Made by a program: the position numbers and the translations under genes. From contig JAVZBY010000002.1 in the NCBI GenBank assembly GCA_038874655.1, positions 210,044-274,043 of the forward strand: a stretch of DNA of 64,000 bases, in the 5' to 3' direction. Shown here piece by piece: positions 14,804-59,722 of this stretch. Below the pieces are notes generated by a model that searched no databases, was not told the DNA's origin, and worked only from the letters and a program-made list of their open reading frames with translations. Source of the DNA: Candidatus Woesearchaeota archaeon (GTDB lineage Archaea; Nanobdellota; Nanobdellia; Woesearchaeales; GW2011-AR15). Positions within the stretch are counted from its first letter, which is position 1; every line of letters starts with the position of its first letter.

Positions 14804-14945
14804 GCGGATGTGCCGGAGTGGTCAAACGGGATAGGCTTAGGTGTGATGAGCCATATACTAAATTTTTAAATCAAAAAATAAGGGCAATGACATTAAGACA
14901 CCTATTGGCTTAGTGCCTGCGCAGGTTCGAACCCTGCCGTCCGCA
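14804..14945 (+). tRNA. tRNA-Leu(TAG) with a 58-nt intron (14842-14899)
   Basis: Acceptor GCGGATG/CGTCCGC, anticodon stem ATAGG/CCTAT, canonical BHB (CTTA/TAAG helix, 3-nt bulges), variable arm, GGTTCGAACC T-arm. Confidence 0.92.
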
Positions 14946-46535: not shown

Positions 46536-48656
46536 ATGATGAATTCAAAAGAAGAAAAACAATATGATTTAAGAAAGCAAGAAAATTCAAACAATAAATA
46601 TGAAAAAACAAAAGAGTCTTTTTCTGAAGGTCAAAGTCAGCAAAATATCCCATTAACTTTAAATGATTTAGACCTATCAAAATTAAACTTACCAAAAGAA
46701 ACTAAAGAAAGATTAGAAGAAATAAAGAAAAAATTAGAGAGATTTCAAAAAGAGGTTTTAGAAAAATTTGATAAATATATAATGGGAATAGCATTATTAC
46801 CTCCTAGAAAACAAGGAGCACAAAATCCTTTAGGTAATTTGCCTTTACCTTTGCCTAATATACCAAATTTACCGAATTTTGGATTACCAAATCAAAATTT
46901 ACCAGGATTATCACCATTAATTCCAGGAATACCAAATTTTATGCCATTTACGCAATCAACTTTACAAACACCAGCTAATTTACCAAATTTAAACAATTCA
47001 CCTACTTTAAATCCAACACAAGGTCCTGTAGTACAAGAAAATAAAAATGAACTTAGAACATTAGTTTTAGTAGATGATAGTGATAGTCAAAAGATGACTA
47101 AAATAGAATTAAAAGCAAAATTATCTCAAATCATAATAGGAATTGCAAATAATATTGACAAAAACATTTGGGTTGAAACCTTATTGTTAAGTGAATTATG
47201 GGAAAATTGTTATGATGGTAAATATGAAACATTAAGTTTAATAGCTTCTGGAACACCTGTTTATGATACAGGGATGTTAGCAGCAATAAAAATAGCAGAA
47301 GTCCATAAGCAAATGGTTTTAGCAAAGTTTGAAAAATATATTGTTTGTTATGTTCTAGCTGGTAGCCTAGTTCAAGGAAAAGCAACAAAAGATTCTGATA
47401 TTGATGTTTTTGTAGTAATTGATGATACCGATGTTAAAAAAATGTCTAGATTTGAGTTAAAAGAAAAATTAAGAGCAATCATTATAGGAATGGGTTTAGA
47501 AGCAGGAGAACTAACAGGAATAAGAAATAAAATTAACATTCAAGTTTATATCTTAACAGATTTCTGGGAAAACATAAAAGAAGCAAATCCAATAATCTTT
47601 ACATTTTTAAGAGATGGTATTCCTTTTTATGACAGAGGAATTTTCATGCCTTGGAAACAATTGTTAAAAATGGGTAAAATAAAACCAAGTCAAGAGGCAA
47701 TTGATATTTTTATGCAATCAGGCGATCAATTAATGAAAACAGTTGATTTTAAATTAAAAACAATAGGTATGGAAGATACATTTTATGCAATATTAACTCC
47801 AAGTCAAGCAGCAATTATGTTATATGGTATTGCTCCTCCAACACCAAAAGAAACACCAGAAATAATGAGAGAAATTTTCGTTAAAAAAGAAAAATTACTA
47901 GAAGAAGAATATGTGGAAATTTTAGAAAAGAACATAAAAATTAGAAAAGACTTAGAACATGGAACAAAAAAAGAATTAACAGGAAAAGAAGTTGATGAAT
48001 TAGTTGAAAATGCAAAAAAATACTTAAAAAGAATTGAGAAATTATTTAAGCAAATAGAAAAAGTAAAAGAAGAAGAATCTCTTATTAATACTTATGAGAC
48101 AACATTAACAATTGTAAAAGATGTCTTAAAATTAGAGGGCATAGAAAAAATAAAAGAAAAAGAAGTTTTGGAATTATTTGAAACAGCTTTAATAGATACA
48201 GGAAAAATACCTCATAAATATTTGAGAGAATTAAAAGATATCATAAAAGCAAAAGAAGATTATGATAATGGCAAATTAACAAAAACAGATATTTCAAAAG
48301 TTAATAAATCAAGTAAGGAATTTCATAATTTCTTAATAGAATACATACATAAAAAAAGAGGCGCAGAATTAGAAAAAGCAAAAATTAAAGTAAAATATGG
48401 TGATAAATTTGGTGAAGTTATTTTACTAGACAAAGTAGCATTTATAATACATGATATAGACTCAAAAGATAAAAAAATTAGTAAAGCAGACCTAGAAAAT
48501 GGTAATTTAATAAATATAAGAGAGACTACACAAGAAGAATTAGAAAAAGCATTGGCAGAAATGAAAATTCCAGAAAATGTATTTTTAAAAAATAATTTAT
48601 TTAACAATTTAAGTGAATTATTTGGTAATGATGTTGAGATATTAGTAAAAAATTAG
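46536..48656 (+). CDS. Tandem nucleotidyltransferase-HEPN multidomain protein
   Basis: Degenerate first NT domain with a Pro/Asn/Leu insertion; second NT domain LAGS...SDIDVFVVIDD; HEPN with RKDLEH. Confidence 0.8.
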   Translation: MMNSKEEKQYDLRKQENSNNKYEKTKESFSEGQSQQNIPLTLNDLDLSKLNLPKETKERLEEIKKKLERFQKEVLEKFDKYIMGIALLPPRKQGAQNPLGNLPLPLPNIPNLPNFGLPNQNLPGLSPLIPGIPNFMPFTQSTLQTPANLPNLNNSPTLNPTQGPVVQENKNELRTLVLVDDSDSQKMTKIELKAKLSQIIIGIANNIDKNIWVETLLLSELWENCYDGKYETLSLIASGTPVYDTGMLAAIKIAEVHKQMVLAKFEKYIVCYVLAGSLVQGKATKDSDIDVFVVIDDTDVKKMSRFELKEKLRAIIIGMGLEAGELTGIRNKINIQVYILTDFWENIKEANPIIFTFLRDGIPFYDRGIFMPWKQLLKMGKIKPSQEAIDIFMQSGDQLMKTVDFKLKTIGMEDTFYAILTPSQAAIMLYGIAPPTPKETPEIMREIFVKKEKLLEEEYVEILEKNIKIRKDLEHGTKKELTGKEVDELVENAKKYLKRIEKLFKQIEKVKEEESLINTYETTLTIVKDVLKLEGIEKIKEKEVLELFETALIDTGKIPHKYLRELKDIIKAKEDYDNGKLTKTDISKVNKSSKEFHNFLIEYIHKKRGAELEKAKIKVKYGDKFGEVILLDKVAFIIHDIDSKDKKISKADLENGNLINIRETTQEELEKALAEMKIPENVFLKNNLFNNLSELFGNDVEILVKN

Positions 48657-49443: not shown

Positions 49444-49486
49444 AATTTATTTTTTGAAATATTTTATTTTACTTATTATTACTCTT

Positions 49487-49509
49487 AAATAACAATATCT
49501 TTAAATATA
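49487..49509 (+). promoter_or_regulatory. Archaeal BRE/TATA promoter
   Basis: AAATAACAATA-tc-TTTAAATATA, with the TATA 30 nt before the ATG; same motif and spacing at 52932-52954. Confidence 0.65.
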
Positions 49510-49529
49510 ATTTATTTTTTTTTTAACTT

Positions 49530-51125
49530 ATGTCATTAGAGGAAAGAGTTGCAAAAGCAGCATTAAAAATTATAGGTAAAACTATAAGAAATTTAGTTAT
49601 TGGAGGGACAATAGCAGTAGGATTATTATATGGTGGTTATAGGTTAGGTTTGATTAAAGTTCCTTTATTAGATCAATATAATCAACCATCAATATCAACT
49701 GTTGAACAGATGCAAAAGCAATTTTCTCAAGAAATAGAAAGTTTAGGAAATTTAATGACAGGAAATTGGGACTATGGTAATAGTCAAGAAGTAACATTAC
49801 CAAGTGGACAAACAGTTGAATTAAAACAATTAGAACCAATTACTTACAATGTAATAGATATATTTAACAGTTCTGCTCAACAAAGTATACCTATTGCAAT
49901 AAGTAGCAGTAATCCTGGTGCTTGTCAACAACCTTCTTTATGTATAATTTTTTATACAAATATACCTACACAACCACAAAATTATTTTTTTTTACCTTCA
50001 TTTGCAAACACTATTCTAAGTTATTGGAAAGGTGATATTGGACTTTTAGATTTTTTGAATAATTTATATAAATCACCAATCCCGGGCTTAAAAGATATAT
50101 TAGATTCATTTAATTTATTAATAGTTAATTTAAAGGGTGGGGAAGAAATTAAATTTGTAACTTTAATTCAGCCAAATGGTAACATAAATTTACAAGAAAT
50201 TGGAAGTACAGAAATTAATGAGATAGCATTACAGAATGGAAAAAATTATTATGAGATTCCTGGTGTTGTTTTAGAAACAAAAGTAGGTTTTCCTTTAAGT
50301 AGTATATCTGCAAACACAACTGATGCTTATAATGGAAATGCTATTATCTCTTTTCAAACATTAACTGTATTACCTAAAAATCTAAGACCTGAAACTTATT
50401 TTTCAAAACCTGCTTCCACTCCGGAAGAACATGAAAAAAGATTAGTAAATTATATCCAAGAGATTAGCAAATATGGATTAGTATCAATATCAATAAAACA
50501 AGAATATGAAGCAAACAGGCAAGTTGTTATAGTTTTTCCTGAATCTGGAATTGATGTTTCACAATTTGATATGTTAGGAAGATTCCCAAATGCAGTAGAA
50601 TTAATTTATTTAAATGATGGTGATCCTAATAATCCAAATAGAAATAACGAATTATTAAAATATTGGAGAAGTTCACAAGGTCCAAATAAACAAACAACAC
50701 TGGTTTCTGCTTATCAAGATTTGAGAAATTTAAGACAAACATCTTGTCAAGTTGCTCAATGGTTAAAAGAGGATGGCTTTAATGTTCAACCAGGAATTAG
50801 TGAGCCATGTTATGAGCCAAATGGACAAATTCAAAGGCCTGATTGGCTTGATTTATATGAGCAAAGATTAAAAGAAGAACAAGCAAAATTAGTACAACAA
50901 TCAATAGAAACTATTACTAATGCTATTCCTCAAATGCCTGATTTATGCGCAATGTGGACAGACAATGCAAGAAATTTATTAGGTCCTGATTGCAAACAAA
51001 CTAATTCACAAACATTAAAAGTCTATGTTCCTGAGAATATGGTATCTTTATTACAAGCTTGGGCACAAATGTATCAAGCAACTTTTGGCGGCACAATTGA
51101 AATTTTACCATTGCCTCAACAATAG
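49530..51125 (+). CDS. Membrane-anchored Q/N/P-rich orphan protein
   Basis: N-terminal TM helix and a large external domain with several Cys. Confidence 0.75.
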   Translation: MSLEERVAKAALKIIGKTIRNLVIGGTIAVGLLYGGYRLGLIKVPLLDQYNQPSISTVEQMQKQFSQEIESLGNLMTGNWDYGNSQEVTLPSGQTVELKQLEPITYNVIDIFNSSAQQSIPIAISSSNPGACQQPSLCIIFYTNIPTQPQNYFFLPSFANTILSYWKGDIGLLDFLNNLYKSPIPGLKDILDSFNLLIVNLKGGEEIKFVTLIQPNGNINLQEIGSTEINEIALQNGKNYYEIPGVVLETKVGFPLSSISANTTDAYNGNAIISFQTLTVLPKNLRPETYFSKPASTPEEHEKRLVNYIQEISKYGLVSISIKQEYEANRQVVIVFPESGIDVSQFDMLGRFPNAVELIYLNDGDPNNPNRNNELLKYWRSSQGPNKQTTLVSAYQDLRNLRQTSCQVAQWLKEDGFNVQPGISEPCYEPNGQIQRPDWLDLYEQRLKEEQAKLVQQSIETITNAIPQMPDLCAMWTDNARNLLGPDCKQTNSQTLKVYVPENMVSLLQAWAQMYQATFGGTIEILPLPQQ

Positions 51126-51249
51126 TCAATCAATTAAAGTATTTTTTCTTCTCTTCATATTAATAAAATAAAGTTAAAAAACAAATACTTATAATGTTAT
51201 TACTAATAAATAGTAAAATTTATATAATGGTTTTTATTTTTTTAAAATA

Positions 51250-52920
51250 ATGAAAAGAATTAAAGGATATTATAATTCTAGCAATAAAGGAGTAGAATCA
51301 AGATTATTGCAACCTTTGAGAGTAAAACCAAAAAGAAGAGAAAAGCAATCAAAAGAACAATTAATAAAGAGAGACCATTTACCAATAAGAATTGAGAATC
51401 CTCCTTATGAAATACAAGGTAATTTAAATCAATGGTTATATTCTTGGGCTTTATATTTAAATGAAAATTTGATTAATTTAGTTTGTGAAATAACAAATAC
51501 AACACAACCACCAGGAGATATAAATGAAATAATTAGTAATACCCAATTAAATATGGAAGAGGTTATTGAAAGATTATTAAATTTTAGAGAAAATTTACCA
51601 AAACCACCAGAATTTTTAAGATCTTATTTAACAGACCAACAAAAAAGAAAACATCAAAGATGGATTAATTATTATAATGAAAGATGGAAAAATGCAAGAA
51701 ATACTGTTGATAATTTATTATATGGTTATGGACTCTTTGAATGGAGAAACTTTGCAAATGCATTTAATAAATTTTATAATCCTCACCAGACTAATTTACA
51801 AATACAAAATCCAGAGCATAATCAAAAATTTAATAATATATACAACCACTTTTTTAATTGTTTAAAAATAAACCTAAGCCTTGCCTCAAGAAATAATATA
51901 AGATATAGGGGTATAAATTATGCAGAAAAAAGCAGAAATAACTTATTAAACTTAGTTGATATTTATCACCAAAGAATTTTGCCTGAAGGAATTAAATTGA
52001 ATAAATTAACTTTAGATAATTTCTTTGATGTTTTTGATGCTATATTGGATGAACATTCTTTAAGAAGGGAAAAAGGACAAAATAAACATTTCTTAGAGGA
52101 ATTAGCTTCAAGATTTAGTAATTATTATTTTAGTGAGTTTGCTTTTGCTTCTATGGTTTTAAATATACAAATACCAAGTCAAATATCACCAGAACAATAT
52201 GAACAGATAAAAACAAATTTAACTTCTGCATATGCTCTTGTTCATAAAGTTTTAGAAAAGGCAATTGAATTAAAAAAAAGAGAAAAACATAAAGAGTTTT
52301 ATGGAAAAATTGCTGATTTTTTTATTTCTTATGGCTTAGATATTTTAAGTAAGTATTTTTCACAATTTTTAAATTTTAATGCTGTTGATATTGAAACAGC
52401 TGTTAGCAATTATTTATTTTTAATTCAAGCTTTACCTGAAAAAAAGAAGGAGATCTCTACAATTATTGATAAAAGTTTATATTTTGAAATTCAAAGATTA
52501 ATTGATTATAATACCCAACTAAATAAAGAATTTAAACCAGAGTTTTATAATGCTGTTTTAGATTATGCAAGAAAAACAAAAAATGCATTTGATAAATTAA
52601 AAGAATATTGCCTAAATAATGAAAATAATAATGAATCTAATTTAAGCATTATTGTAAAAGGAGGAGTTTTAGGATTAACTATTCAATATATACAAATTGC
52701 AGGATTAGGTATTGTTAATAATTTGATTGAAGTTAATGAAGTTGTTCAATATATTAAAAGCATTATTGAAGAGCCTTTTTTTAATCAAGATGAGAGATTT
52801 ATGCAAAGATTTAATGATCTGTTATTACAAAGCACAACTTATTTTGCACAATTAGGTGCTAGATATCCTGAGACACATTCTAAATTTGAAGAATTTTACA
52901 CTAAATTACAAAAAGTTTAA
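51250..52920 (+). CDS. Helical orphan protein
   Basis: 556-aa ORF; TTTATATA 31 nt upstream; no signal peptide. Confidence 0.75.
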   Translation: MKRIKGYYNSSNKGVESRLLQPLRVKPKRREKQSKEQLIKRDHLPIRIENPPYEIQGNLNQWLYSWALYLNENLINLVCEITNTTQPPGDINEIISNTQLNMEEVIERLLNFRENLPKPPEFLRSYLTDQQKRKHQRWINYYNERWKNARNTVDNLLYGYGLFEWRNFANAFNKFYNPHQTNLQIQNPEHNQKFNNIYNHFFNCLKINLSLASRNNIRYRGINYAEKSRNNLLNLVDIYHQRILPEGIKLNKLTLDNFFDVFDAILDEHSLRREKGQNKHFLEELASRFSNYYFSEFAFASMVLNIQIPSQISPEQYEQIKTNLTSAYALVHKVLEKAIELKKREKHKEFYGKIADFFISYGLDILSKYFSQFLNFNAVDIETAVSNYLFLIQALPEKKKEISTIIDKSLYFEIQRLIDYNTQLNKEFKPEFYNAVLDYARKTKNAFDKLKEYCLNNENNNESNLSIIVKGGVLGLTIQYIQIAGLGIVNNLIEVNEVVQYIKSIIEEPFFNQDERFMQRFNDLLLQSTTYFAQLGARYPETHSKFEEFYTKLQKV

Positions 52921-52931
52921 TTACTACTATA

Positions 52932-52954
52932 AAATAACAATAAATTTAAATATA
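52932..52954 (+). promoter_or_regulatory. Archaeal BRE/TATA promoter
   Basis: AAATAACAATA-aa-TTTAAATATA, with the TATA 30 nt before the ATG at 52975. Confidence 0.65.
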
Positions 52955-52974
52955 TTCTTTTTTTTATCCTTAAA

Positions 52975-55110
52975 ATGCTCTTTTCATTAAAAAGAATTGT
53001 TCAAGTAGGTTTGTTATTAAGTGGATTATTTATTTCACTTTATAATACGGGTTTAGCAAACTCTTTTGATTTAATTAATCCACAATCTCAACAGCCACCT
53101 GCATGTGAAATTTTTCAAAATTATGATCCAAAATCAGCACCAACAGAAATTAACGAAATTTTTTCAGATCCTAATTTTCAAAACGCAATTTGTTCTTTAA
53201 AAGGAAGTGTGCTTATAGTTGATAGTGAAGGTAAGGAAGTAAACTATTTAGATTTTAATCCATATGGAGAGACAGGAGGATATAGATATTTAACAGTTAA
53301 ATTTCCTAAAATAGTTTTGACACCATTGATTAATTTTGAGTCAATACCTCCTTCTTTTGAAAATAAGGCAATAGGTCCATCAGGATTTCATATGGGCGCA
53401 GATTATACAAGTATTTTATATGATCCTACAGGAGAGTATACAATTATAGATTCAAATGGAAATAAAATTCCAATTAACATTCATAGAATGCAAGCATTCT
53501 TTAAAAGACCAGAGGGATTAGAAGCAACAATAGTAGAAGAAACATGGCCACAGGGTTATGGTAAAAATGGAATATTAATAAAACTTGGTAGTTATAATGA
53601 TTGGGAATTACAATTAAGAATTGGACATGGGATTTTTCCTAATCAAAATGCTTTAATTGAAGATGAAGATGAAATAAAACAAATATTAGATTATTTAAAT
53701 CAACAAATTAAAGAAAATCCAGAAAAATTTGTTCATGTAGCTGATTCAGGAATGGAAGGTGCAGCAAATGGACATCCTCATTATCATGTAGAGCTTTCTT
53801 TATTAAATCCTAAAACAGGAAGACGTGTTTTTTTAGATCCTACCTTTACTGTAATTTTAAATCAACATCCTGAAAACGTTTCTTCAATAAATAATTTAGT
53901 AGAACAAAAAAAACTTTCAGATAATGATTTAGTTAATGAATATATTGAATTTCTAAGACAAAGCCCTGAAGCAAGAGCACTTTTATTAACTATTGCGAGA
54001 AATGAAAGTGGATATAACTTTGATGCTAAAAACCCTAATTCAAGTGCTTATGGTTTTTTTCAAATTATTGATTCAACAAATCAAGAACTTAATAAAAAAG
54101 GTTTTCCAGATAATAATAATAATAAAGAAACACAATTAGCAAAAGGTGCTTATCTTTTGGAGAGTAGAATAAAATTATATACTACTAAAGACCCAACAAC
54201 ATTTTTAAAAGAATTAACAAAAGAAGAACTTATTGATTTTTTAAATAAAGAATTACAGTGTGAATGGGCAGGAACACCAGGCACTTGTTTACAATCTAGA
54301 GGTTTTAATAATCAATATTATCCAGAAAATTATGGTTTTTCATCTTGGGAAAAAGCTCAAGAAGAATTCTGGGAAACTTACAAAATACATTTAGAAATTT
54401 CTAAAAAAGGAGAAGATTTAATATCAACATTAATAGGAGAGGTTCAATTACCAAATGAAAGAGAAAGTGCATCTGAAATATCTTTAATAGATTATCTCAA
54501 ACAACATCCAGATTTAGTTTTAGTTAATAACACTTTTAGAAAACAAGGTGTAAAAGGTCCTGAAGAATGTAGAGAGGGAGAACTTTGGTTTATGGAAGGG
54601 AGTTTAAGACAAACACCTTTACCAGAAAAAGCAAATGCTTATACTTGTAATAAGGGACATTGGGACGAAATTCAAACTTTTAATCTAGAAGGTGTTAATT
54701 TAGAAGACTATACAAATAAAAGAGTACTACCTGATACACAGCAACAACAGTATAAACTTCCAGATTATTTAAGAAATAGTCTTCAAATAAGTGGTGATGG
54801 TAGTGTTATATTTAACCCAAAGGAGCAATGGTTTCCAAATTATGAACAAAATCCTTTTTCATTTTTCTTGATTCCTGAAATAGACCAAGAAGGAAAAATA
54901 CCTTTTTATCAAATACAAATTGCACCAGGTGTAATCTTAACTTTTAGAAAAGAAGAAGGCTCATTTAATCTTTCAGAAATTTTTGATTTACAAAGAGAAA
55001 TTTATTCCTCTTTAATGAATAGAGAAAATATTGAATTAAACTATGGAAGGTTAGTCAAAATTGAATTACCTTATAGTGAATTTGAAGAATTAATATTAAA
55101 AAATCCATAA
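52975..55110 (+). CDS. Secreted M23 peptidase plus lysozyme-like (lambda-R/SLT) predicted peptidoglycan hydrolase
   Basis: Signal peptide. M23 motifs: HMGAD (HxxxD), GYG, GHPHYHVE..LDP (HxH). Lysozyme-like motifs: ARALLLTIARNESG, SSAYGFFQI, EWAGTPG. Confidence 0.8.
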   Translation: MLFSLKRIVQVGLLLSGLFISLYNTGLANSFDLINPQSQQPPACEIFQNYDPKSAPTEINEIFSDPNFQNAICSLKGSVLIVDSEGKEVNYLDFNPYGETGGYRYLTVKFPKIVLTPLINFESIPPSFENKAIGPSGFHMGADYTSILYDPTGEYTIIDSNGNKIPINIHRMQAFFKRPEGLEATIVEETWPQGYGKNGILIKLGSYNDWELQLRIGHGIFPNQNALIEDEDEIKQILDYLNQQIKENPEKFVHVADSGMEGAANGHPHYHVELSLLNPKTGRRVFLDPTFTVILNQHPENVSSINNLVEQKKLSDNDLVNEYIEFLRQSPEARALLLTIARNESGYNFDAKNPNSSAYGFFQIIDSTNQELNKKGFPDNNNNKETQLAKGAYLLESRIKLYTTKDPTTFLKELTKEELIDFLNKELQCEWAGTPGTCLQSRGFNNQYYPENYGFSSWEKAQEEFWETYKIHLEISKKGEDLISTLIGEVQLPNERESASEISLIDYLKQHPDLVLVNNTFRKQGVKGPEECREGELWFMEGSLRQTPLPEKANAYTCNKGHWDEIQTFNLEGVNLEDYTNKRVLPDTQQQQYKLPDYLRNSLQISGDGSVIFNPKEQWFPNYEQNPFSFFLIPEIDQEGKIPFYQIQIAPGVILTFRKEEGSFNLSEIFDLQREIYSSLMNRENIELNYGRLVKIELPYSEFEELILKNP

Positions 55111-55143
55111 TCTTTAAATATAAAAATTTACTACCACTATAAA

Positions 55144-56706
55144 ATGACAGATTATTATTTTTTGGCAATACCTGTTGAATTAATTTTGGAAAAAAAAAAT
55201 GAATTAAATGAGCAGGATCCAGTTAAATTTAATTCACTTGACTCTTGCGTTAGTCAAGAGGAAACATTTAACTCTTGGGTTAGTGGAAGAAAAGGTGCTG
55301 GTTTAAATTTAAAACAAGATCCATATAATCTTTGGTGGAGAATATTTTCTTTGTTAAATCTTTTACCAGATAGTTTTATCCCAATAGCAACCTTAAGAGT
55401 TATTACATCTGAGAATCGAAATCCATTTTTACCAGAAAGAGGGAATTATGTTGGTGTTATAATTAAAAGTGAAGAAAAACCGACTTTTGAGTCTGATAGA
55501 ATAAAGGTATATGGCTTAGAAAGTGCTGGTATTGTAGTTGATGAAAAAGTAGATGATAAAAGAAACCCACATTTAACAATTTTACATTCTAATTCTAGTA
55601 GATTAGATAGTGGGAATGACTTACTAAATTTATTAAAAATATATGTAACTAATTTTGGGATTTCTTCTGTTAATGATGGAAATTTAGCAGAAGTTATCAA
55701 AAGAATTTTAGAAATAAATGCTGGAGTTCAAAAGAGAGATAGTGAGGGTAAGAATATTTGGCAAATAAAAGTTCCTGCCACAATAAGAGAATATGAAAAA
55801 ACTTTGAATAAAGAAGCTTATTTGTGGAATAAATTAATTGAAAATTCTAATTTTCCAATTGAATATGTTCAAACAAAAAAGCCACGAATTACTTTAAAAA
55901 GTATTGGGTTAGAATTGATTTTAAGTGAAGGAAATAAAACTTATGTAGCACTTGTTGATACTATTAGGAGCATTACAGAAAAACATGCTATTCCTTCTAT
56001 TACAATTGAAAATGGTTTTGCTTTTATTGATGTAAAAGTAGAAGATCCAAAAGATAGTTTGGGAAATAGGATTAAGGATTATTGGAATAAAGCAGAACAA
56101 TTTTTTAATGGAGTAGGTACACTTTTATTAGAATTGATAGTTGCTGGAGTAGTTTTATATTTCGGTTATCAAGCATTACAGAAAGCAGGTGTTCAAATAC
56201 CAAATATTCAAATATCAAATTATTTCTCTACACCTGCAGCAGTAGAAACAACACCTTATCCTTCAACAACACCTCAAGGTTTAGAAACTAAACTAACAGA
56301 AACACATGACCTTTATAAAGTAAAACCTACAGAAACACCTACACCTACACCTACAACATTACCCTATCCAGTACCACAATCAACACCACCATCATATAGT
56401 TTAGAGAGAGCATGCAAAAAAGAAGATGTGCCTAATGTTGTTTATGGATCTAATGGACCATTTACTTTAAAATTTGATCCAGAGGGAAATTTTGTGTTTG
56501 TAGGAAATTCGCCAAACGGAAAATTAGTAAATTTTGGTAATGCTTCTAGTGGACAACAAAATATAGCTACTAACATTAGTACGCCAGAGGGCACTGACCC
56601 TGGATCTCAACTAGTTAAGGGGTATTTAAATGCTGAAAAAATGACTATTCCAGAAGGAAGTCCTTTATCTGAGTTATACCAAAACTTACCATTTTGTGAA
56701 AAATGA
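55144..56706 (+). CDS. Single-pass membrane protein with a Pro/Thr-rich stalk
   Basis: Internal TM helix followed by TETPTPTPTT and a C-terminal domain with two Cys; TTTAAATATA 31 nt upstream. Confidence 0.75.
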   Translation: MTDYYFLAIPVELILEKKNELNEQDPVKFNSLDSCVSQEETFNSWVSGRKGAGLNLKQDPYNLWWRIFSLLNLLPDSFIPIATLRVITSENRNPFLPERGNYVGVIIKSEEKPTFESDRIKVYGLESAGIVVDEKVDDKRNPHLTILHSNSSRLDSGNDLLNLLKIYVTNFGISSVNDGNLAEVIKRILEINAGVQKRDSEGKNIWQIKVPATIREYEKTLNKEAYLWNKLIENSNFPIEYVQTKKPRITLKSIGLELILSEGNKTYVALVDTIRSITEKHAIPSITIENGFAFIDVKVEDPKDSLGNRIKDYWNKAEQFFNGVGTLLLELIVAGVVLYFGYQALQKAGVQIPNIQISNYFSTPAAVETTPYPSTTPQGLETKLTETHDLYKVKPTETPTPTPTTLPYPVPQSTPPSYSLERACKKEDVPNVVYGSNGPFTLKFDPEGNFVFVGNSPNGKLVNFGNASSGQQNIATNISTPEGTDPGSQLVKGYLNAEKMTIPEGSPLSELYQNLPFCEK

Positions 56707-58058
56707 GACTTCTAAAATCATTAGAAAATATATTAGCCACAAGCTTATTAAGCAGTGGTTTATTTTTAACTTTAAAAAATTTTGTTGATATGCAAGATTT
56801 AACACTTTTTGGATTAACTACCTTAGGTAGTTATGTTTTAGTTAAAGGATATAACTATTTAAAACCAGAAGCAAATTTTTCAAAAATAGCATTTTCATCT
56901 GTTTTAATTTTAGGACAATTATTTTCTAGATTACTTCCTGGATATGATTTTAATATAAATGAAAGAGTAATAACAGAACAAAATAAACCAACTATTTCAG
57001 CAGAAACTAATTCACAAATTAATACTATTTATTTACCTGTTGTATTGAATAATGCTAAAGAGGGAGATTTTTTTTATAATGAAAAGAGTTTAGAAGGTAT
57101 TCCGATTACAGAAGTTCCTCCAATTCAAACTACTACAAAACCTACTGAAACTTTAATTCCTGTTATGCAAACTCAAATGCAAAAACCACAAAACACACCT
57201 ACAATTACACCAACACCTTATTCTTGTAAAGATTATTCTTCACAAGGTTTTTCAGTAATTTCAAAAGGTATTTGGTATAAAAAAGTGCCTTTTACAACAA
57301 ATAGTGAAAATGAATATGTCGGGACAGCATGTTATTTAAAAAATTGTAATTATCATCTTTTAATAGTTGATTTAAATCAAAATGGAATTACAGTAACTTC
57401 TGATATTTTTGGTTATGGAAGAACAACAAAAGAATTTGTAACTAGTAAGAATGGTGGAAATGAAAATATAATTTTAGGCATTAGTGGAGATGAATGGGAT
57501 GAAAGAAGTAATTCCTTTAAACCTCTGGGACTTCATGTTTATAATGGAAAAATCTTAAATCCTCCTAGTGAAGAGCAATGGTCTCCTGTTTTATATGTTT
57601 TTAAAGATGGACATGTTGAAATAGGATATGAAAAAGATTTTGAATCAATACAAGAAGATATTTTGCATGCAATCTCAGGTATTTCTTTAATTGTTGAAAA
57701 TGGATTACCAAATCCAGAAAAATTTAATAATCCAAAATCCTCTTATAATTCAATAGTACCAAGATCAGCAATAGGCATAAGTAGTGATGGAAAAACTTTA
57801 TTTGTCTTTGTAAGCGATGTTGTTTTCCAAAGTGGCTATCAAGAAGGCATGACATTAAGATTTGTAGCAGAAAGGTTAGCTGAATTAGGTGCAAAAAGAG
57901 CTTTTACATTATCAAGTGGAGGGGGTTCTAGTTTTTTTTCAGAAGAAGGATATAAAAACTATGTTTCATTAGCATCTGGTTCTTCTGAGCAAGTAAGGTC
58001 TAATAATATTGGAATTTTTCCTTATGAAAATGGTAGTTGTGTTGATTTTTTAAAATAA
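56703..58058 (+). CDS. Membrane-anchored phosphodiester glycosidase (NAGPA-like) protein
   Basis: GLHVYNG, PRSAIG...G.TL..L..LGA..A..L.SGGGSS motifs; N-terminal TMs and P/T stalk; ATGA overlap with the upstream gene. Confidence 0.8.
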   Translation: MRLLKSLENILATSLLSSGLFLTLKNFVDMQDLTLFGLTTLGSYVLVKGYNYLKPEANFSKIAFSSVLILGQLFSRLLPGYDFNINERVITEQNKPTISAETNSQINTIYLPVVLNNAKEGDFFYNEKSLEGIPITEVPPIQTTTKPTETLIPVMQTQMQKPQNTPTITPTPYSCKDYSSQGFSVISKGIWYKKVPFTTNSENEYVGTACYLKNCNYHLLIVDLNQNGITVTSDIFGYGRTTKEFVTSKNGGNENIILGISGDEWDERSNSFKPLGLHVYNGKILNPPSEEQWSPVLYVFKDGHVEIGYEKDFESIQEDILHAISGISLIVENGLPNPEKFNNPKSSYNSIVPRSAIGISSDGKTLFVFVSDVVFQSGYQEGMTLRFVAERLAELGAKRAFTLSSGGGSSFFSEEGYKNYVSLASGSSEQVRSNNIGIFPYENGSCVDFLK

Positions 58059-58120
58059 TTTCCTTCTAATTACTAGAAAATCAAAAATTATATAAACCAG
58101 TATACATATTAATATACTAT

Positions 58121-58636
58121 ATGGACACAAGTTTAGCAGATTATAGTAAATATGGATTTCATAGAATAATTAGGTATAGTGGTGTTTTTGATTTTGATGG
58201 TTTCTATAAATTTATGGTTAAATGGATTAAAGATCATGATTTTGATTTTTATGAAACAAAAATCATTGATAAAAGTCCCTATAGAATTTATAAAATGATG
58301 GGTAGAAAAAAAATTAGTTTTTATTGTATGTTTCAATTATTACCAGAAATATGGTTATGGGATGCAAAACCTGTTGAAGTTTTTAAGGATGGTAAATTAA
58401 AACATTTAACAGAAGCAAGGATGAAAGTTGTTATTAATGGTGGCTATATTCTTGATTATGATGGTGATTTTGAAAAAGATGAAGGAAAAAAGAAAATGGA
58501 AAACTTTCTCAATAATAAAATCCTATACCATGAAACATTATTAAAATATTTTGATTATTTAGATTATTACTTATATGGTTTTATGCAAGATGTAAAAAAA
58601 TATTTAGAAATGGAAACAGCAACAAACGCTTATTAA
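58121..58636 (+). CDS. Hypothetical protein, paralog 1 of tandem triplet
   Basis: YSGVFDF..FY..M..W motif shared with the two downstream genes. Confidence 0.8.
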   Translation: MDTSLADYSKYGFHRIIRYSGVFDFDGFYKFMVKWIKDHDFDFYETKIIDKSPYRIYKMMGRKKISFYCMFQLLPEIWLWDAKPVEVFKDGKLKHLTEARMKVVINGGYILDYDGDFEKDEGKKKMENFLNNKILYHETLLKYFDYLDYYLYGFMQDVKKYLEMETATNAY

Positions 58637-58672
58637 AAAATCATGATTTAAGATAAAACTAAAAAAAAGAAA

Positions 58673-59188
58673 ATGGTAGAATTTTATACACCAGTTGTTG
58701 GAGAAACATTAAACTTTGAAGGATTATTTAGTATGAGAGAAGTATTTAGAATCATAGATAAATATTATAGGACAAAAGGTTTTGATAAAAAAATAATATT
58801 TGATGAAGAATATAACACAGAAAAAGGTAAATATGTTCATGTAAAAGCAGAGTACTATAAAAAAACAGATTCTTATGTAAGAATATCTAATAGATTATGG
58901 ATATATGGTTATGATTTAATTGAAGTTGAAAAAGAAGTAGATGGTCAAAAAGTAAAAACAAATCAAGGCAAACTAAATATTATTTTTGATGGTTTTGTCC
59001 AAACAAATTACTTTGGCATTTTTGATGATTCAAAACCATGGAGATTTATGTTTATGATTGCATATGAAAAATGGTTTTACAAGAGTAAAATTGAATATTG
59101 GTTAGGTGTAGTAAGACATGTAATCAATGAACTAAGAACAGAATTAGCTGGTTATCTAAACATAAACAAATTTGTTTATGAAAGATAA
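58673..59188 (+). CDS. Hypothetical protein, paralog 2 of tandem triplet
   Basis: FEGLFSM..VF..ID.Y motif. Confidence 0.8.
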   Translation: MVEFYTPVVGETLNFEGLFSMREVFRIIDKYYRTKGFDKKIIFDEEYNTEKGKYVHVKAEYYKKTDSYVRISNRLWIYGYDLIEVEKEVDGQKVKTNQGKLNIIFDGFVQTNYFGIFDDSKPWRFMFMIAYEKWFYKSKIEYWLGVVRHVINELRTELAGYLNINKFVYER

Positions 59189-59215
59189 TTATTAAAGATT
59201 AATTTTTAAATCAAA

Positions 59216-59722
59216 ATGATACGAGATGAAATTCAAGAAGCAGCGTTAGGCATGGCTGTTAATTATGAAGGTATATTTAATCTAAATGATTTACTATTTT
59301 TAATAGATTCTTTTTTTAGAAAAAGGGGTTATGTAAAAAAAGTTGAAACCCATAATGAAAGTTATACAGAAAAAGGTAGAAATCTTCTTTTAAAAATAAG
59401 ACCTTTTAAAAAAGTAAAAAATAACACATTAGAAATACAAGTTACTATGAATTTTCAAAACATTATTGAAATAACAAAAAAAATTGATAATATAAATGCT
59501 TTGCTCAATAAAGGAAAAGTAAGTATTACTATTGATGCTTTTGTATTAGAATCAAGAAGAGGTGCCTGGGATACAAGACCTGAACAAGTATTTATAAAAA
59601 CAATCTTTGACAAATTTTTATTAGGCAGCAGTGGAAAAGATTATGCAGGTATGGTAGTTGGTGAAGCAAAAGAATTAAAAAATGAAATAAATGCATTTTT
59701 AAATTTGTATAAATTCATATAA
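59216..59722 (+). CDS. Hypothetical protein, paralog 3 of tandem triplet
   Basis: YEGIFNL..LL..ID.F motif. Confidence 0.8.
   Translation: MIRDEIQEAALGMAVNYEGIFNLNDLLFLIDSFFRKRGYVKKVETHNESYTEKGRNLLLKIRPFKKVKNNTLEIQVTMNFQNIIEITKKIDNINALLNKGKVSITIDAFVLESRRGAWDTRPEQVFIKTIFDKFLLGSSGKDYAGMVVGEAKELKNEINAFLNLYKFI

What the first reader, a model, noticed from the sequence alone, without database searches (positions are those of the whole stretch)
49487..58058. Archaeally-promoted island of secreted orphans centred on a peptidoglycan hydrolase: candidate anti-bacterial or bacterial-host invasion system
Seen: five co-oriented large genes with Q/N/P/T-rich products, unlike the K/E-rich neighbours. Four products have a signal or TM segment. 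The island includes an M23-lysozyme fusion, a NAGPA-like protein and Pro/Thr stalks. Four of the genes have their own TATA box 30-31 nt before the ATG, and there is no visible junction with the archaeal flanks. Known: archaea lack peptidoglycan; characterised DPANN hosts are archaea; isolated archaeal PG-hydrolase homologues have been reported. Inference: this is a multi-gene kit for attaching to and breaching a bacterial cell wall, implying a DPANN archaeon with a bacterial host or prey.
Basis: partly seen in the sequence, partly recalled or inferred. Interest (0 to 1): 0.9.

Follow-up and report, generated by a model that had tools for sequence, protein, structure and literature searches.

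The report
Archaeal island encoding bacterial-wall-cutting enzyme
A small-genome archaeon carries an 8.6-kb, lineage-specific block of five surface-protein genes, one of which looks like an enzyme that cuts bacterial cell walls; such enzymes are common in this archaeal phylum and the idea that they target bacteria is already published.

Summary
Five co-oriented genes (49530-58058) are Q/P-rich outliers. Four have a consensus TATA box 30-31 nt before the ATG, and four have a signal or membrane segment. Comparison with three congeners and one other genus shows a clean ~8.6-kb insertion between two genes that are adjacent elsewhere. Independent contigs bridge both borders, so it is not a chimera.

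Gene 3 has an SLT lytic-transglycosylase domain with its catalytic Glu. The N-terminal M23 reading rests on motifs and Atlas leads only; every profile test failed. Gene 5 is a NAGPA-family domain, but the family's invariant catalytic Asp (DGGGS) reads SGGGS, so it is more likely a binding head than an enzyme. Genes 1, 2 and 4 had no relative in any search.

The genome shows no murein-synthesis genes, so a foreign, bacterial wall is the likely substrate. That is not novel: SLT occurs in 209 of 401 and M23 in 139 of 401 genomes of this phylum, M23+SLT fusions in at least 9, and the bacterial-target hypothesis is in print (2021, 2022, 2025). A co-functioning "kit" is unproven. Partly new: the insertion, the divergent architecture, and recurrent NAGPA fusion to murein hydrolases in the phylum.

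The parts
49457..58076 (.). Lineage-specific insertion (about 8.6 kb) between gene g0 and gene s1
   Evidence: In G001, G002 and G003 (same genus) and G005 (same family) the order NTase-g0-s1-s2-s3-PGI is contiguous. In G001 g0 and s1 are 87 bp apart. Intergenic homology stops at about 49456 on the left and resumes at 58077 on the right.
49530..51125 (+). g1: 531-aa orphan with a weak N-terminal anchor (residues ~19-42) and a large, probably extracellular part
   Evidence: No Pfam, NCBIfam, PHROG or PADLOC hit. Only itself found in the 5.8-billion-protein search. None in 60 relatives. No usable Atlas hit. PDB sequence search gave nothing significant.
51250..52920 (+). g2: 556-aa orphan with a basic N-terminus, no signal peptide and one internal hydrophobic stretch (residues 473-489)
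   Evidence: No family hit above cut-off. None in 60 relatives. PDB sequence search gave nothing.
52975..55110 (+). g3: 711-aa secreted protein made of a signal peptide, an M23-like domain, an SLT lytic transglycosylase and an unknown C-terminal domain
53272..53904 (+). g3 residues 100-310: M23-like domain with motifs H139xxxD143, H218 and H269xH271
   Evidence: Motifs located. Atlas feature search: score 0.91, with 19 of 30 hits in M23 clusters. Atlas structure search: all 8 rows are M23 clusters, TM 0.41-0.45. Against: no Pfam M23 hit even at E<=10; an HMM built from the phylum's M23 domains gave E 0.12; hhalign gave probability 22%; my own AlphaFold model had pLDDT 42 and gave no PDB match.
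53923..54426 (+). g3 residues 317-484: SLT module (Pfam core residues 334-403, catalytic Glu E344 in the E-S motif)
   Evidence: Pfam SLT 31.7 bits against a cut-off of 21.3. P0002, a 233-aa stand-alone secreted SLT protein, is 45% identical over residues 317-484. The E-S and NPNSSA-G-x-x-Q blocks are conserved in the 6-sequence alignment. PHROG hits are to phage tail and tape-measure transglycosylases.
54442..55107 (+). g3 residues ~490-711: C-terminal domain of unknown fold, shared with P0003
   Evidence: P0003 (338 aa, a fragment) aligns to the HxH block and then directly to this C-terminal domain. It lacks the SLT module. No Pfam hit.
55144..56706 (+). g4: 520-aa orphan with an N-terminal ~320-aa domain without signal, a membrane segment (324-345), a Pro/Thr stalk (395-416) and a ~100-aa C-terminal head
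   Evidence: Only itself found in the large search. Its one weak relative covers residues 394-494 and lies just before the NAGPA domain of a G014 protein (E 1.4e-5).
56703..58058 (+). g5: 451-aa protein with N-terminal hydrophobic segments, Pro/Thr linkers and a NAGPA-family domain (residues 255-421). It overlaps g4 by 4 nt and has no TATA box of its own
   Evidence: Pfam NAGPA E 2.7e-19. PDB 3ohg (DUF2233) E 5.3e-16..
57915..57929 (+). g5 residues 405-409, SGGGS: the position of the family's invariant DGGGS motif, with the catalytic Asp replaced by Ser
   Evidence: Alignment to 3ohg. The motif and the D286 catalytic role come from PMC13474241 (passages read). 18 of 19 other NAGPA domains of the phylum keep Asp at this column, and 11 of 19 keep strict DGGGS.
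49500..49507 (+). TATA box of g1 (TTTAAATA, 30 nt before the ATG)
51219..51226 (+). TATA box of g2 (TTTATATA, 31 nt before the ATG)
52945..52952 (+). TATA box of g3 (TTTAAATA, 30 nt before the ATG)
55113..55120 (+). TATA box of g4 (TTTAAATA, 31 nt before the ATG)
51200..51216 (.). Perfect palindrome TTACTA-N5-TAGTAA directly upstream of the g2 TATA box: a candidate operator
   Evidence: It occurs 6 times in the genome, against a mean of 0.7 (next highest 3) for the 60 same-composition palindromes, and mostly lies next to TATA boxes.
49475..49520 (+). 46-nt promoter segment of g1, repeated at 52920-52965 (the g3 promoter) with 83% identity
   Evidence: family D1.

Best explanation
This is a lineage-specific, natively expressed island of surface and secreted proteins. 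Its one well-assigned activity is extracellular cleavage of bacterial peptidoglycan.

Shown:
- The island is an insertion of about 8.6 kb relative to four relatives. It is assembled contiguously.
- Its codon usage and TATA promoters match those of the host genome.
- g3 has a signal peptide and an SLT domain with the catalytic Glu.
- The genome showed no murein-building genes.

Inferred mechanism:
- g3 is exported by the Sec pathway. Its SLT module cuts the MurNAc-GlcNAc glycan of a neighbouring bacterium's wall.
- The M23-like domain, if it is active, cuts peptide cross-links.
- The C-terminal domain of g3 may target the enzyme.
- g4 and g5 are co-transcribed and membrane-anchored. Each holds a small head on a Pro/Thr stalk long enough to reach beyond the S-layer.
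- The g5 head is a NAGPA-fold domain that has lost the catalytic Asp. It more probably binds GlcNAc-phosphate-bearing wall polymers, acting as an adhesin, than cleaves them.
- g1 and g2 have no assignable role.

The data cannot tell whether the purpose is attachment to a bacterial host, killing of competitors or prey, or release of wall fragments for food.
For: Insertion. The order NTase-g0-s1-s2-s3-PGI is contiguous in 4 of the 4 relatives whose locus I fetched.

Not a chimera. In run X1, one contig covers 47500-51490 and another covers 55485-58636, each with 0 differences and an even depth of 5.2-7.4. Pieces identical to both the island and its flanks occur in X2. Diverged pieces of g1, g2, g3 and g5 occur in X3 and X4, which come from other studies.

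Native expression signals. 4 of 5 island genes have the consensus TATA box at -30/-31, against 52 of 904 genome-wide. GC3 is native.

Enzyme. SLT scores above the Pfam cut-off, and E344 sits in a conserved E-S motif.

Foreign substrate. The own genome (97% complete) gave no hit for Mur_ligase_M, Transpeptidase or FtsW/RodA.

Recurrence of the architecture. M23 and SLT lie in one ORF in 9 genomes, read from the listed rows. Two of these were verified with Pfam: G254 (M23 then SLT, the order seen in g3) and G088.

NAGPA linked to murein hydrolases. This holds for 4 of 19 other NAGPA ORFs of the phylum:
- G262: C39_2 + NAGPA + SLT.
- G355: Amidase_3 + C39_2 + VanY + NAGPA + deacetylase.
- G423: Metallophos + SLT + NAGPA.
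- G114: Metallophos + GH3 + NAGPA, adjacent to an SLT gene.

Precedent. Archaeal M23-type hydrolases have been shown to kill bacteria (PMC12352652; title, abstract start and passages read).
Against: - No activity, expression or partner organism is shown, and no RNA run was listed.
- The M23 domain was not detected by Pfam (E<=10), by a phylum-built HMM (E 0.12) or by hhalign (probability 22%). My AlphaFold models were of low confidence (pLDDT 39 and 42).
- g5 lacks the invariant catalytic Asp.
- g1, g2 and g4 are orphans, so co-function of the five genes rests on adjacency alone.
- Of the 36 strain differences listed inside the island, 32 change the amino acid. The neutral expectation is 81%, so constraint on the protein sequences is weak.
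- No pore-forming CorC_HlyC gene and no Amidase_3 gene was found in the genome.
- The g3 SLT domain is only marginally similar to the phylum's usual SLT domains (best 13.4 bits). The whole protein matched none of 400 phylum genomes.
Confidence: 0.55

Rival explanations
1. Scavenging rather than attack. The island's enzymes digest free peptidoglycan debris (necromass) in the hot-spring community. This supplies amino sugars and amino acids to an archaeon with little biosynthetic capacity, without any specific bacterial partner.
For: The genome is small (1.26 Mb). A Glucosamine_iso (NagB/Pgl-type) gene is present on C1. In G114 a NAGPA domain is fused to GH3, a NagZ-type domain, which fits processing of wall fragments. 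No pore-forming CorC_HlyC gene was found.
Against: Lytic transglycosylases release 1,6-anhydro-muropeptides (established knowledge), and no AnmK was found to use them. Membrane anchors and stalks keep the proteins on the cell, which suits contact better than diffusion. The fast amino-acid divergence fits an arms race better than housekeeping nutrition, though this is weak evidence.
Confidence: 0.2
2. A remnant of a virus or other mobile element. The island was delivered by a mobile element, and g3 is a virion-type or entry/lysis enzyme carried along with it. It has no present role in the archaeon's lifestyle.
For: The block is a clean insertion absent from 4 of 4 compared relatives. The g3 SLT module resembles phage tail-fibre and tape-measure transglycosylases (PHROG E 4e-7). 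Several distant hits are long proteins that I read as tape-measure-like. Amino-acid divergence between strains is near neutral.
Against: No integrase, capsid, terminase or replication gene is present. PHROG hits are confined to the SLT core. The listed repeats include no flanking direct repeats, and the insertion is not next to a tRNA. Nothing was found in viral contigs. Four genes carry the host's consensus promoter and GC3 is fully native. Five ORFs of 451-711 codons stay open in a 25% GC genome, and an indel in a related strain is in frame (15 nt).
Confidence: 0.1
3. A non-murein substrate. The SLT-like and NAGPA-like domains act on the archaeon's own surface glycans, or on those of an archaeal host (S-layer glycans, pseudomurein-like or chitin-like polymers). 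Bacteria are not involved.
For: All cultivated hosts of such archaea are archaea (stated in the abstracts of PMC8204110 and PMC11537232). g5 has lost its catalytic Asp, and the M23 domain is too divergent for its specificity to be inferred. The palindromic operator at g2 also sits before glycosyltransferase genes.
Against: The SLT catalytic motif is intact and matches that of murein-specific enzymes. In the phylum, NAGPA and SLT are fused to unmistakably murein-specific domains: Amidase_3, VanY and NlpC/P60. Pseudomurein has a beta-1,3 talosaminuronic linkage that lysozyme-type enzymes do not cut (established knowledge, recalled).
Confidence: 0.1
4. Assembly artefact: a bacterial or foreign fragment wrongly joined into an archaeal contig.
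For: The amino-acid composition differs from that of the neighbours. The island lies about 6 kb from the contig end.
Against: Independently built contigs bridge both borders with 0 differences and even depth. GC3, TATA position and promoter sequence all match the host's. The right junction retains the conserved s1 promoter.
Confidence: 0.02

Closest known systems
[quoted passage not shown] 2021, PMC8204110; passages read)
   Same: An archaeal, small-genome lineage. A secreted or anchored protein with an SLT domain. The proposed role is binding and degrading bacterial walls. In my survey SLT occurs in 209 of 401 genomes of the phylum.
   Different: g3 is 711 aa, not up to 3,000 aa. Its SLT domain belongs to a different, phage-tail-like subtype and is barely similar to the phylum's usual domains (13.4 bits). 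The whole protein matched none of 400 phylum genomes. It also carries an M23-like domain and an unknown C-terminal domain. I could not check membership of fam00969 because the supplementary tables are closed.
Modular archaeal peptidoglycan hydrolases that kill bacteria (Halogranum M23 + PG_binding_1 proteins; PLoS Biol 2025, PMC12352652; title, abstract start and passages read)
   Same: An archaeal M23-type hydrolase aimed at bacteria, with a patchy distribution among close relatives read as an arms-race pattern. That paper reports peptidoglycan hydrolases as prominent in Nanoarchaeota and M23 in four Nanoarchaeia genomes.
   Different: g3 has no recognised wall-binding domain (no LysM, no PG_binding_1). 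Its M23 part is not recognised by the Pfam model. It combines M23-like with SLT. No experiment exists for it.
M23+SLT two-domain proteins elsewhere in the same phylum (G254 598 aa, G088, G364, G056, G238, G397, G184, G059, G308)
   Same: The same domain pair in one secreted protein. G254 has the same order, M23 then SLT.
   Different: Those proteins score 88-92 bits (M23) and 71-75 bits (SLT) against Pfam. g3 scores nothing for M23 and 31.7 bits for SLT. g3 is not their orthologue.
NAGPA 'uncovering enzyme' / bacterial DUF2233 (PDB 3ohg; JBC 2026, PMC13474241; passages read)
   Same: g5 residues 178-411 align to 3ohg at E 5.3e-16. Like human NAGPA, its catalytic-type head sits on a stalk away from the membrane.
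   Different: The strictly invariant DGGGS motif reads SGGGS in g5. In the human enzyme D286A is the catalytic-dead mutant. The substrate of prokaryotic members is unknown.
Phage virion-associated lysins and tape-measure proteins with SLT domains (PHROG 3201, 4067, 6090)
   Same: The g3 SLT core best matches this subtype (E 4e-7 to 1e-2).
   Different: The island has no other phage genes, and it uses archaeal promoters and native codon usage.

Membership tests
SLT lytic transglycosylase (Pfam PF01464; GH23-type) | Profile match above the curated cut-off | tested here: met
   31.7 bits against a cut-off of 21.3, E 1.2e-7, residues 334-403. Whole-genome scan E 8e-9.
SLT lytic transglycosylase (Pfam PF01464; GH23-type) | Catalytic Glu in the E-S motif | tested here: met
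   E344-S345 aligns with the invariant E-S of five other SLT proteins. That this Glu is the catalytic residue is established knowledge, recalled.
SLT lytic transglycosylase (Pfam PF01464; GH23-type) | Activity on MurNAc-GlcNAc bonds giving 1,6-anhydro products | not testable with these tools
   Needs an enzyme assay.
Peptidase M23 (Pfam PF01551; LytM/lysostaphin type) | Profile match | tested here: not met
   No hit at E<=10 for residues 100-300 or in the genome scan. An HMM built from 30 M23 domains of the phylum gave E 0.12 and 2.4 bits. hhalign gave probability 22%, covering only the HxH block.
Peptidase M23 (Pfam PF01551; LytM/lysostaphin type) | Zn-binding and catalytic motifs HxxxD and HxH, plus a third His | tested here: met
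   H139-M-G-A-D143, H218, and H269-Y-H271 preceded by G-x-P. These motif definitions are recalled.
Peptidase M23 (Pfam PF01551; LytM/lysostaphin type) | M23 fold | tested here: inconclusive
   The Atlas's own model matches only M23 clusters (8 of 8 rows, TM 0.41-0.45), and 19 of 30 feature hits are M23 (score 0.91). My AlphaFold models had pLDDT 39 and 42, and Foldseek against PDB found nothing at E<=0.001.
NAGPA / DUF2233 phosphodiester glycosidase (Pfam PF09992) | Profile match above the cut-off | tested here: met
   70.4 bits against a cut-off of 25. PDB 3ohg E 5.3e-16.
NAGPA / DUF2233 phosphodiester glycosidase (Pfam PF09992) | Invariant DGGGS loop with the catalytic Asp | tested here: not met
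   g5 reads S-G-G-G-S at residues 405-409. 18 of 19 other phylum domains keep Asp. The motif's role is taken from PMC13474241.
Genomic island acquired by transfer | Present here and absent at the same locus in close relatives | tested here: met
   4 of 4 compared relatives have g0 directly followed by s1. g1, g2 and g3 were not found in 60 relatives; g4 gave only one weak partial match, in G014.
Genomic island acquired by transfer | Foreign composition, mobility genes or terminal repeats | tested here: not met
   GC3 is native. No integrase-like Pfam hit. No flanking direct repeats among those listed. No adjacent tRNA.
Multi-gene functional system ('kit') | Conserved linkage of the components in other genomes | tested here: not met
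   No homologue of g1, g2 or g4 was found to test synteny with. Only the NAGPA-SLT and M23-SLT links recur, as fusions or neighbours.

The most novel reading that the evidence does not exclude
The five genes together form a new kind of contact-dependent apparatus with which a small-genome archaeon docks onto and opens the wall of a living bacterium.

In this reading a stalked, catalytically dead NAGPA-fold head (g5) and the g4 head recognise GlcNAc-phosphate-linked wall polymers. g3 then cuts both glycan and peptide. The orphans g1 and g2 are novel structural or regulatory parts, wired into a small host regulon through the TTACTA-N5-TAGTAA operator.

The rapid amino-acid turnover between strains would then reflect an arms race with the bacterial partner. 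More broadly, NAGPA-fold domains would be an unrecognised component of the anti-murein toolkit of this phylum.
Probability: 0.2. Interest if true: 0.8.

Novelty: new variant of a known kind. Interest (0 to 1): 0.42.

Why it matters
All cultivated relatives of these small archaea live on other archaea. Whether some live on, or prey on, bacteria is an open question that several papers have raised from exactly this kind of gene. This locus does not answer it, but it offers three things.
- A compact, well-bounded and natively promoted candidate: a 711-aa enzyme that could be expressed and assayed on bacterial sacculi.
- A natural presence/absence contrast with congeners that lack the island.
- A lead that NAGPA-fold domains travel with murein hydrolases in this phylum. 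That lead suggests a role for wall-polymer (GlcNAc-phosphate) recognition or removal, which I did not find discussed: 0 papers held both 'DPANN' and 'phosphodiester glycosidase'.

Tried and rejected
**Homologue searches that found nothing**
- The search for homologous proteins for g3, g1 and g4 returned only the query itself. This search is limited by word matching and protein length, so it does not prove absence.
- The search for related loci found no confirmed relative. I tried the g3/P0003/P0002 alignment in genome, metagenome and viral contigs, then P0003 in metagenome contigs and P0002 in genome contigs. The genomic context of P0002 and P0003 therefore stays unknown.
- The protein-atlas search gave no usable hit for g1.
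- PDB sequence searches gave nothing for g3, its residues 100-300, g1, g2 and g4.
- PADLOC gave nothing for the five proteins. A defence-system reading was dropped.

**Structure**
- Single-sequence AlphaFold of g3 (pLDDT 39) and of residues 100-310 (pLDDT 42) was too poor to use. Foldseek against PDB on the second model gave no match at E<=0.001.
- g1, g2, g4 and g5 were not folded because the cap is two jobs.

**Sequencing runs**
- No RNA holder was listed, so nothing can be said about expression.
- The joints listed have sides of 20-24 letters in AT-rich sequence. I treat them as spurious.

**Promoter motif**
- ATTACT followed 8-16 nt later by a TATA box is not enriched genome-wide (11 seen, 8.8 expected).
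- Only the full palindrome is enriched.

**Genome-level co-occurrence**
- I did not test formally whether NAGPA and SLT co-occur in the same genomes. By eye, about 9-10 of the 16 other NAGPA genomes also have SLT, close to the 52% base rate.

**Rejected reading**
- An autolysin for a self-made wall is rejected, because no Mur ligase, PBP or FtsW/RodA was found.

**Not seen**
- Supplementary tables of PMC8204110 (family membership) and PMC12352652 (list of archaeal hydrolases) are closed. They may already list this protein or genome.

Full report
**1. What is at the coordinates**

The window is G000:C2:210044-274043, the last 64 kb of a 274-kb contig. The assembly is 1.26 Mb in 17 contigs, 97% complete and 24.5% GC. 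The genome is archaeal. It encodes a two-repeat TBP, which rings only in the four archaeal control genomes. The window also holds a 142-nt intron-bearing tRNA and an archaeal-type S-layer protein. The tools give no taxon name. That label is my inference.

Between 49530 and 58058 lie five co-oriented ORFs of 531, 556, 711, 520 and 451 aa, here called g1 to g5.

**2.

- Composition. Among 914 ORFs of at least 150 aa in the genome, the five sit at percentiles 94-99.8 for Q+P and 11-29 for K+E. Their GC3 (0.09-0.13) is native.
- Promoters. g1 to g4 each have TTTAAATA or TTTATATA starting 30 or 31 nt before the ATG. Genome-wide this octamer peaks sharply at exactly those distances: 38 genes at 30 nt and 14 at 31 nt, out of 904 ORFs. 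The island genes therefore carry this genome's own promoter type for near-leaderless mRNAs, at a rate of 4 of 5 against 52 of 904 (p = 5e-5).
- Operon structure. g5 overlaps g4 by 4 nt and has no TATA box of its own, so g4 and g5 are probably one transcript.
- Shared promoter. The g1 and g3 promoters are a 46-nt repeat with 83% identity.
- Topology. A crude hydropathy scan gives an N-terminal anchor or signal in g1 (weak), g3 and g5, and a mid-protein membrane segment in g4. Pro/Thr stalks are present in g4 and g5.

**3. It is an insertion, not a chimera**

The flanking genes were located in five relatives and the loci of four of them (three congeners, one other genus) were fetched. In all four the order NTase, g0, s1, s2, s3, PGI is contiguous. 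In G001 g0 and s1 are 87 bp apart. In the window, 8.6 kb separate g0 from s1.

Intergenic homology to the relatives stops near 49456 and resumes at 58077, which includes the conserved s1 promoter. The listed repeats include no flanking direct repeats, no integrase was found and no tRNA is adjacent.

Contigs built independently from public runs bridge both borders:
- In X1, one contig covers 47500-51490 and another covers 55485-58636, with no differences and an even depth of 5.2-7.4. X1 may be the source sample.
- X2 (same study) holds identical pieces of the island and of the flanks.
- X3 and X4 (two other studies, labelled hot springs metagenome) hold diverged pieces of g1, g2, g3 and g5 as well as of the flanks. 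One piece carries an in-frame 15-nt insertion in g3.

Related populations therefore carry the island. The GTDB congeners searched do not show it. g1, g2 and g3 were not found in 60 relatives, and g4 gave only one weak partial match.

**4. What the proteins are**

*g3.* Pfam finds SLT at residues 334-403 (31.7 bits, cut-off 21.3). E344-S345 aligns with the invariant E-S of other SLT proteins.

An exhaustive HMMER scan of 1.84 billion representative proteins returned 14 proteins at E<=0.001, the query included. Eleven of the other 13 match only the SLT region. The two closest are informative:
- P0002 is a 233-aa secreted stand-alone SLT protein, 45% identical over residues 317-484.
- P0003 is a fragment that aligns to the HxH block and then straight to the C-terminal domain, with no SLT in between.

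g3 thus looks like an M23-like plus C-terminal-domain protein into which an SLT module was inserted. That module is of a phage-tail-like subtype (PHROG tail fibre E 4e-7). It is barely similar to the SLT domains common in the phylum (best 13.4 bits).

The M23 reading is not secure.
- For it: the motifs H139xxxD143, H218 and H269xH271 are present. The Atlas gives M23 clusters for 19 of 30 feature hits (score 0.91) and for all 8 structure rows (TM 0.41-0.45).
- Against it: Pfam finds nothing even at E<=10. An HMM I built from 30 M23 domains of the phylum gives E 0.12. hhalign gives 22% probability. My AlphaFold models are unusable.

*g5.* Pfam NAGPA scores 70.4 bits and PDB 3ohg (DUF2233) matches at E 5.3e-16.

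A 2026 structure paper calls the DGGGS loop strictly invariant and uses D286A as the catalytic-dead mutant (PMC13474241, passages read). g5 reads SGGGS at that place. Of 19 other NAGPA domains in the phylum, 18 keep the Asp. g5 is therefore more likely a binding module than an enzyme.

*g1, g2 and g4.* No hit above threshold in Pfam, NCBIfam, PHROGs or PADLOC, and no significant PDB sequence hit. g1 and g4 also found only themselves in the large protein search. g1 gave no usable Atlas hit. The only lead is a weak match of the g4 head (residues 394-494) to the segment before the NAGPA domain of a G014 protein.

**5. Context in the phylum and in print**

In 401 high-quality genomes of the phylum (G000 included):
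- SLT occurs in 209 (the tally includes one unpublished genome, G276).
- M23 occurs in 139.
- NAGPA occurs in 17.

Matching contig and ORF length between the listed rows shows M23 and SLT in the same ORF in 9 genomes. This is a lower bound, because only 150 rows of each search are listed. Pfam confirmed two of them. G254 has the same M23-then-SLT order as g3.

Of 19 other NAGPA ORFs, 4 are tied to murein hydrolases:
- G262: C39_2 + NAGPA + SLT.
- G355: Amidase_3 + C39_2 + VanY + NAGPA + polysaccharide deacetylase, with weak Glucosaminidase and NlpC/P60 matches.
- G423: Metallophos + SLT + NAGPA.
- G114: Metallophos + GH3 + NAGPA, directly beside an SLT gene.

Among these 19 ORFs, five carry a phosphatase domain (Metallophos in G114, G423 and G231; a DSP-type phosphatase in two, including this genome's own paralogue on C3) and one carries a GDSL esterase. 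Eleven carry nothing else.

I offer one idea purely as inference. Lytic transglycosylases need a free MurNAc C6-OH, and wall polymers are attached there through GlcNAc-1-phosphate. NAGPA-plus-phosphatase modules could therefore clear, or recognise, that site.

The bacterial-target hypothesis itself is published:
- 'Vampiristic' Woesearchaeota with lytic murein transglycosylases (PMC9723730).
- Three DPANN genomes encoding a murein-like lytic transglycosylase, in an oxygen-deficient-zone survey (PMC10936187).
- Archaeal peptidoglycan hydrolases that kill bacteria, prominent in Nanoarchaeota (PMC12352652).

**6. Weighing the function**

The genome showed no Mur ligase, PBP or FtsW/RodA, so g3 is not an autolysin for a self-made wall. 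Surface display of a murein-cutting enzyme aimed at bacteria is the best reading (confidence 0.55). The purpose remains open: host attachment, predation, competition or scavenging.
- Against simple scavenging: no AnmK was found, and the proteins are anchored to the cell.
- Against active lysis: no CorC_HlyC-type pore former and no Amidase_3 was found.

Among the strain differences listed, 32 of 36 in the island change the amino acid, against 1 of 4 in the flanks (Fisher p = 0.013). The neutral expectation is 81%. The numbers are small, the list is truncated and the contigs are of low depth. Still, this points to weakly constrained or diversifying proteins, which also explains why they look like orphans. 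The frames nevertheless stay open over 451-711 codons in a 25% GC genome.

**7. Verdict**

The locus is a divergent new variant of a known kind, the extracellular murein hydrolases of small-genome archaea. It is embedded in an unusually well-delimited island whose other genes are unexplained.

The 'kit' is unproven, the M23 label is tentative, and the NAGPA-like domain is probably non-catalytic.

Interest is moderate (0.42). The headline inference is already in the literature and such domains are common in the phylum. The locus remains a clean experimental handle, and the link between NAGPA and murein hydrolases is a lead I did not find in print (0 papers held both 'DPANN' and 'phosphodiester glycosidase'; only the held library was searched).

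Noticed in passing
window 51200-51216; also G000 C1:191121, C2:31723, C7:25311, C8:12411, C12:16940: The perfect palindrome TTACTA-N5-TAGTAA occurs 6 times in the genome. The 60 same-composition palindromes average 0.7, and the next highest has 3. It nearly always abuts a TATA box. Downstream genes include g2, a GT9-like protein, a MazE/AbrB-like 179-aa protein, and secreted or unknown proteins. This is a candidate operator of a small regulon.
   Followed up: partly
window 58121-59722: Three tandem genes of 168-171 aa (s1, s2, s3) with no family hit. s2 and s3 are paralogues (27% identity). The trio is conserved in order in all four relatives compared.
   Followed up: partly
window 3358-5472 (- strand): A full bacterial-type RelA/SpoT protein (HD_4 + RelA_SpoT + TGS + ACT) in an archaeal genome.
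   Followed up: no
G000 C3:40313-42130 (L044:6313-8130, - strand): A second NAGPA gene in this genome, with an intact DGGGS motif, is fused to a DSP-type phosphatase domain. It overlaps by one base the end of a HerA/DUF87 ATPase gene on the same strand. G014 has a similar NAGPA + phosphatase protein.
   Followed up: partly
G000 C1:267971-268195 (L060:1315-2205, - strand): A canonical M23 gene (297-aa frame, 32 bits against a cut-off of 28.7) lies elsewhere in the genome. The archaeon therefore has at least one recognisable M23 peptidase besides the doubtful one in g3.
   Followed up: partly
L053:156-7436 (G355:C18): A 2,426-aa protein in a genome of the same order strings together Amidase_3, C39_2, VanY, NAGPA, fn3 and a polysaccharide deacetylase, with weak Glucosaminidase and NlpC/P60 matches. 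It is an all-in-one murein-dismantling protein in an archaeon.
   Followed up: partly
window 46536-48656: A 706-aa nucleotidyltransferase (Polbeta/NTP_transf_2) has a long Pro/Asn/Leu-rich low-complexity insert near its N-terminus. It is conserved in relatives at 65-81% identity, and a shorter paralogue lies at C2:238281-238817.
   Followed up: no
window 14804-14945: A tRNA gene of 142 nt is matched end to end by the Rfam tRNA model, which implies an intron of about 70 nt. ARAGORN missed it.
   Followed up: no
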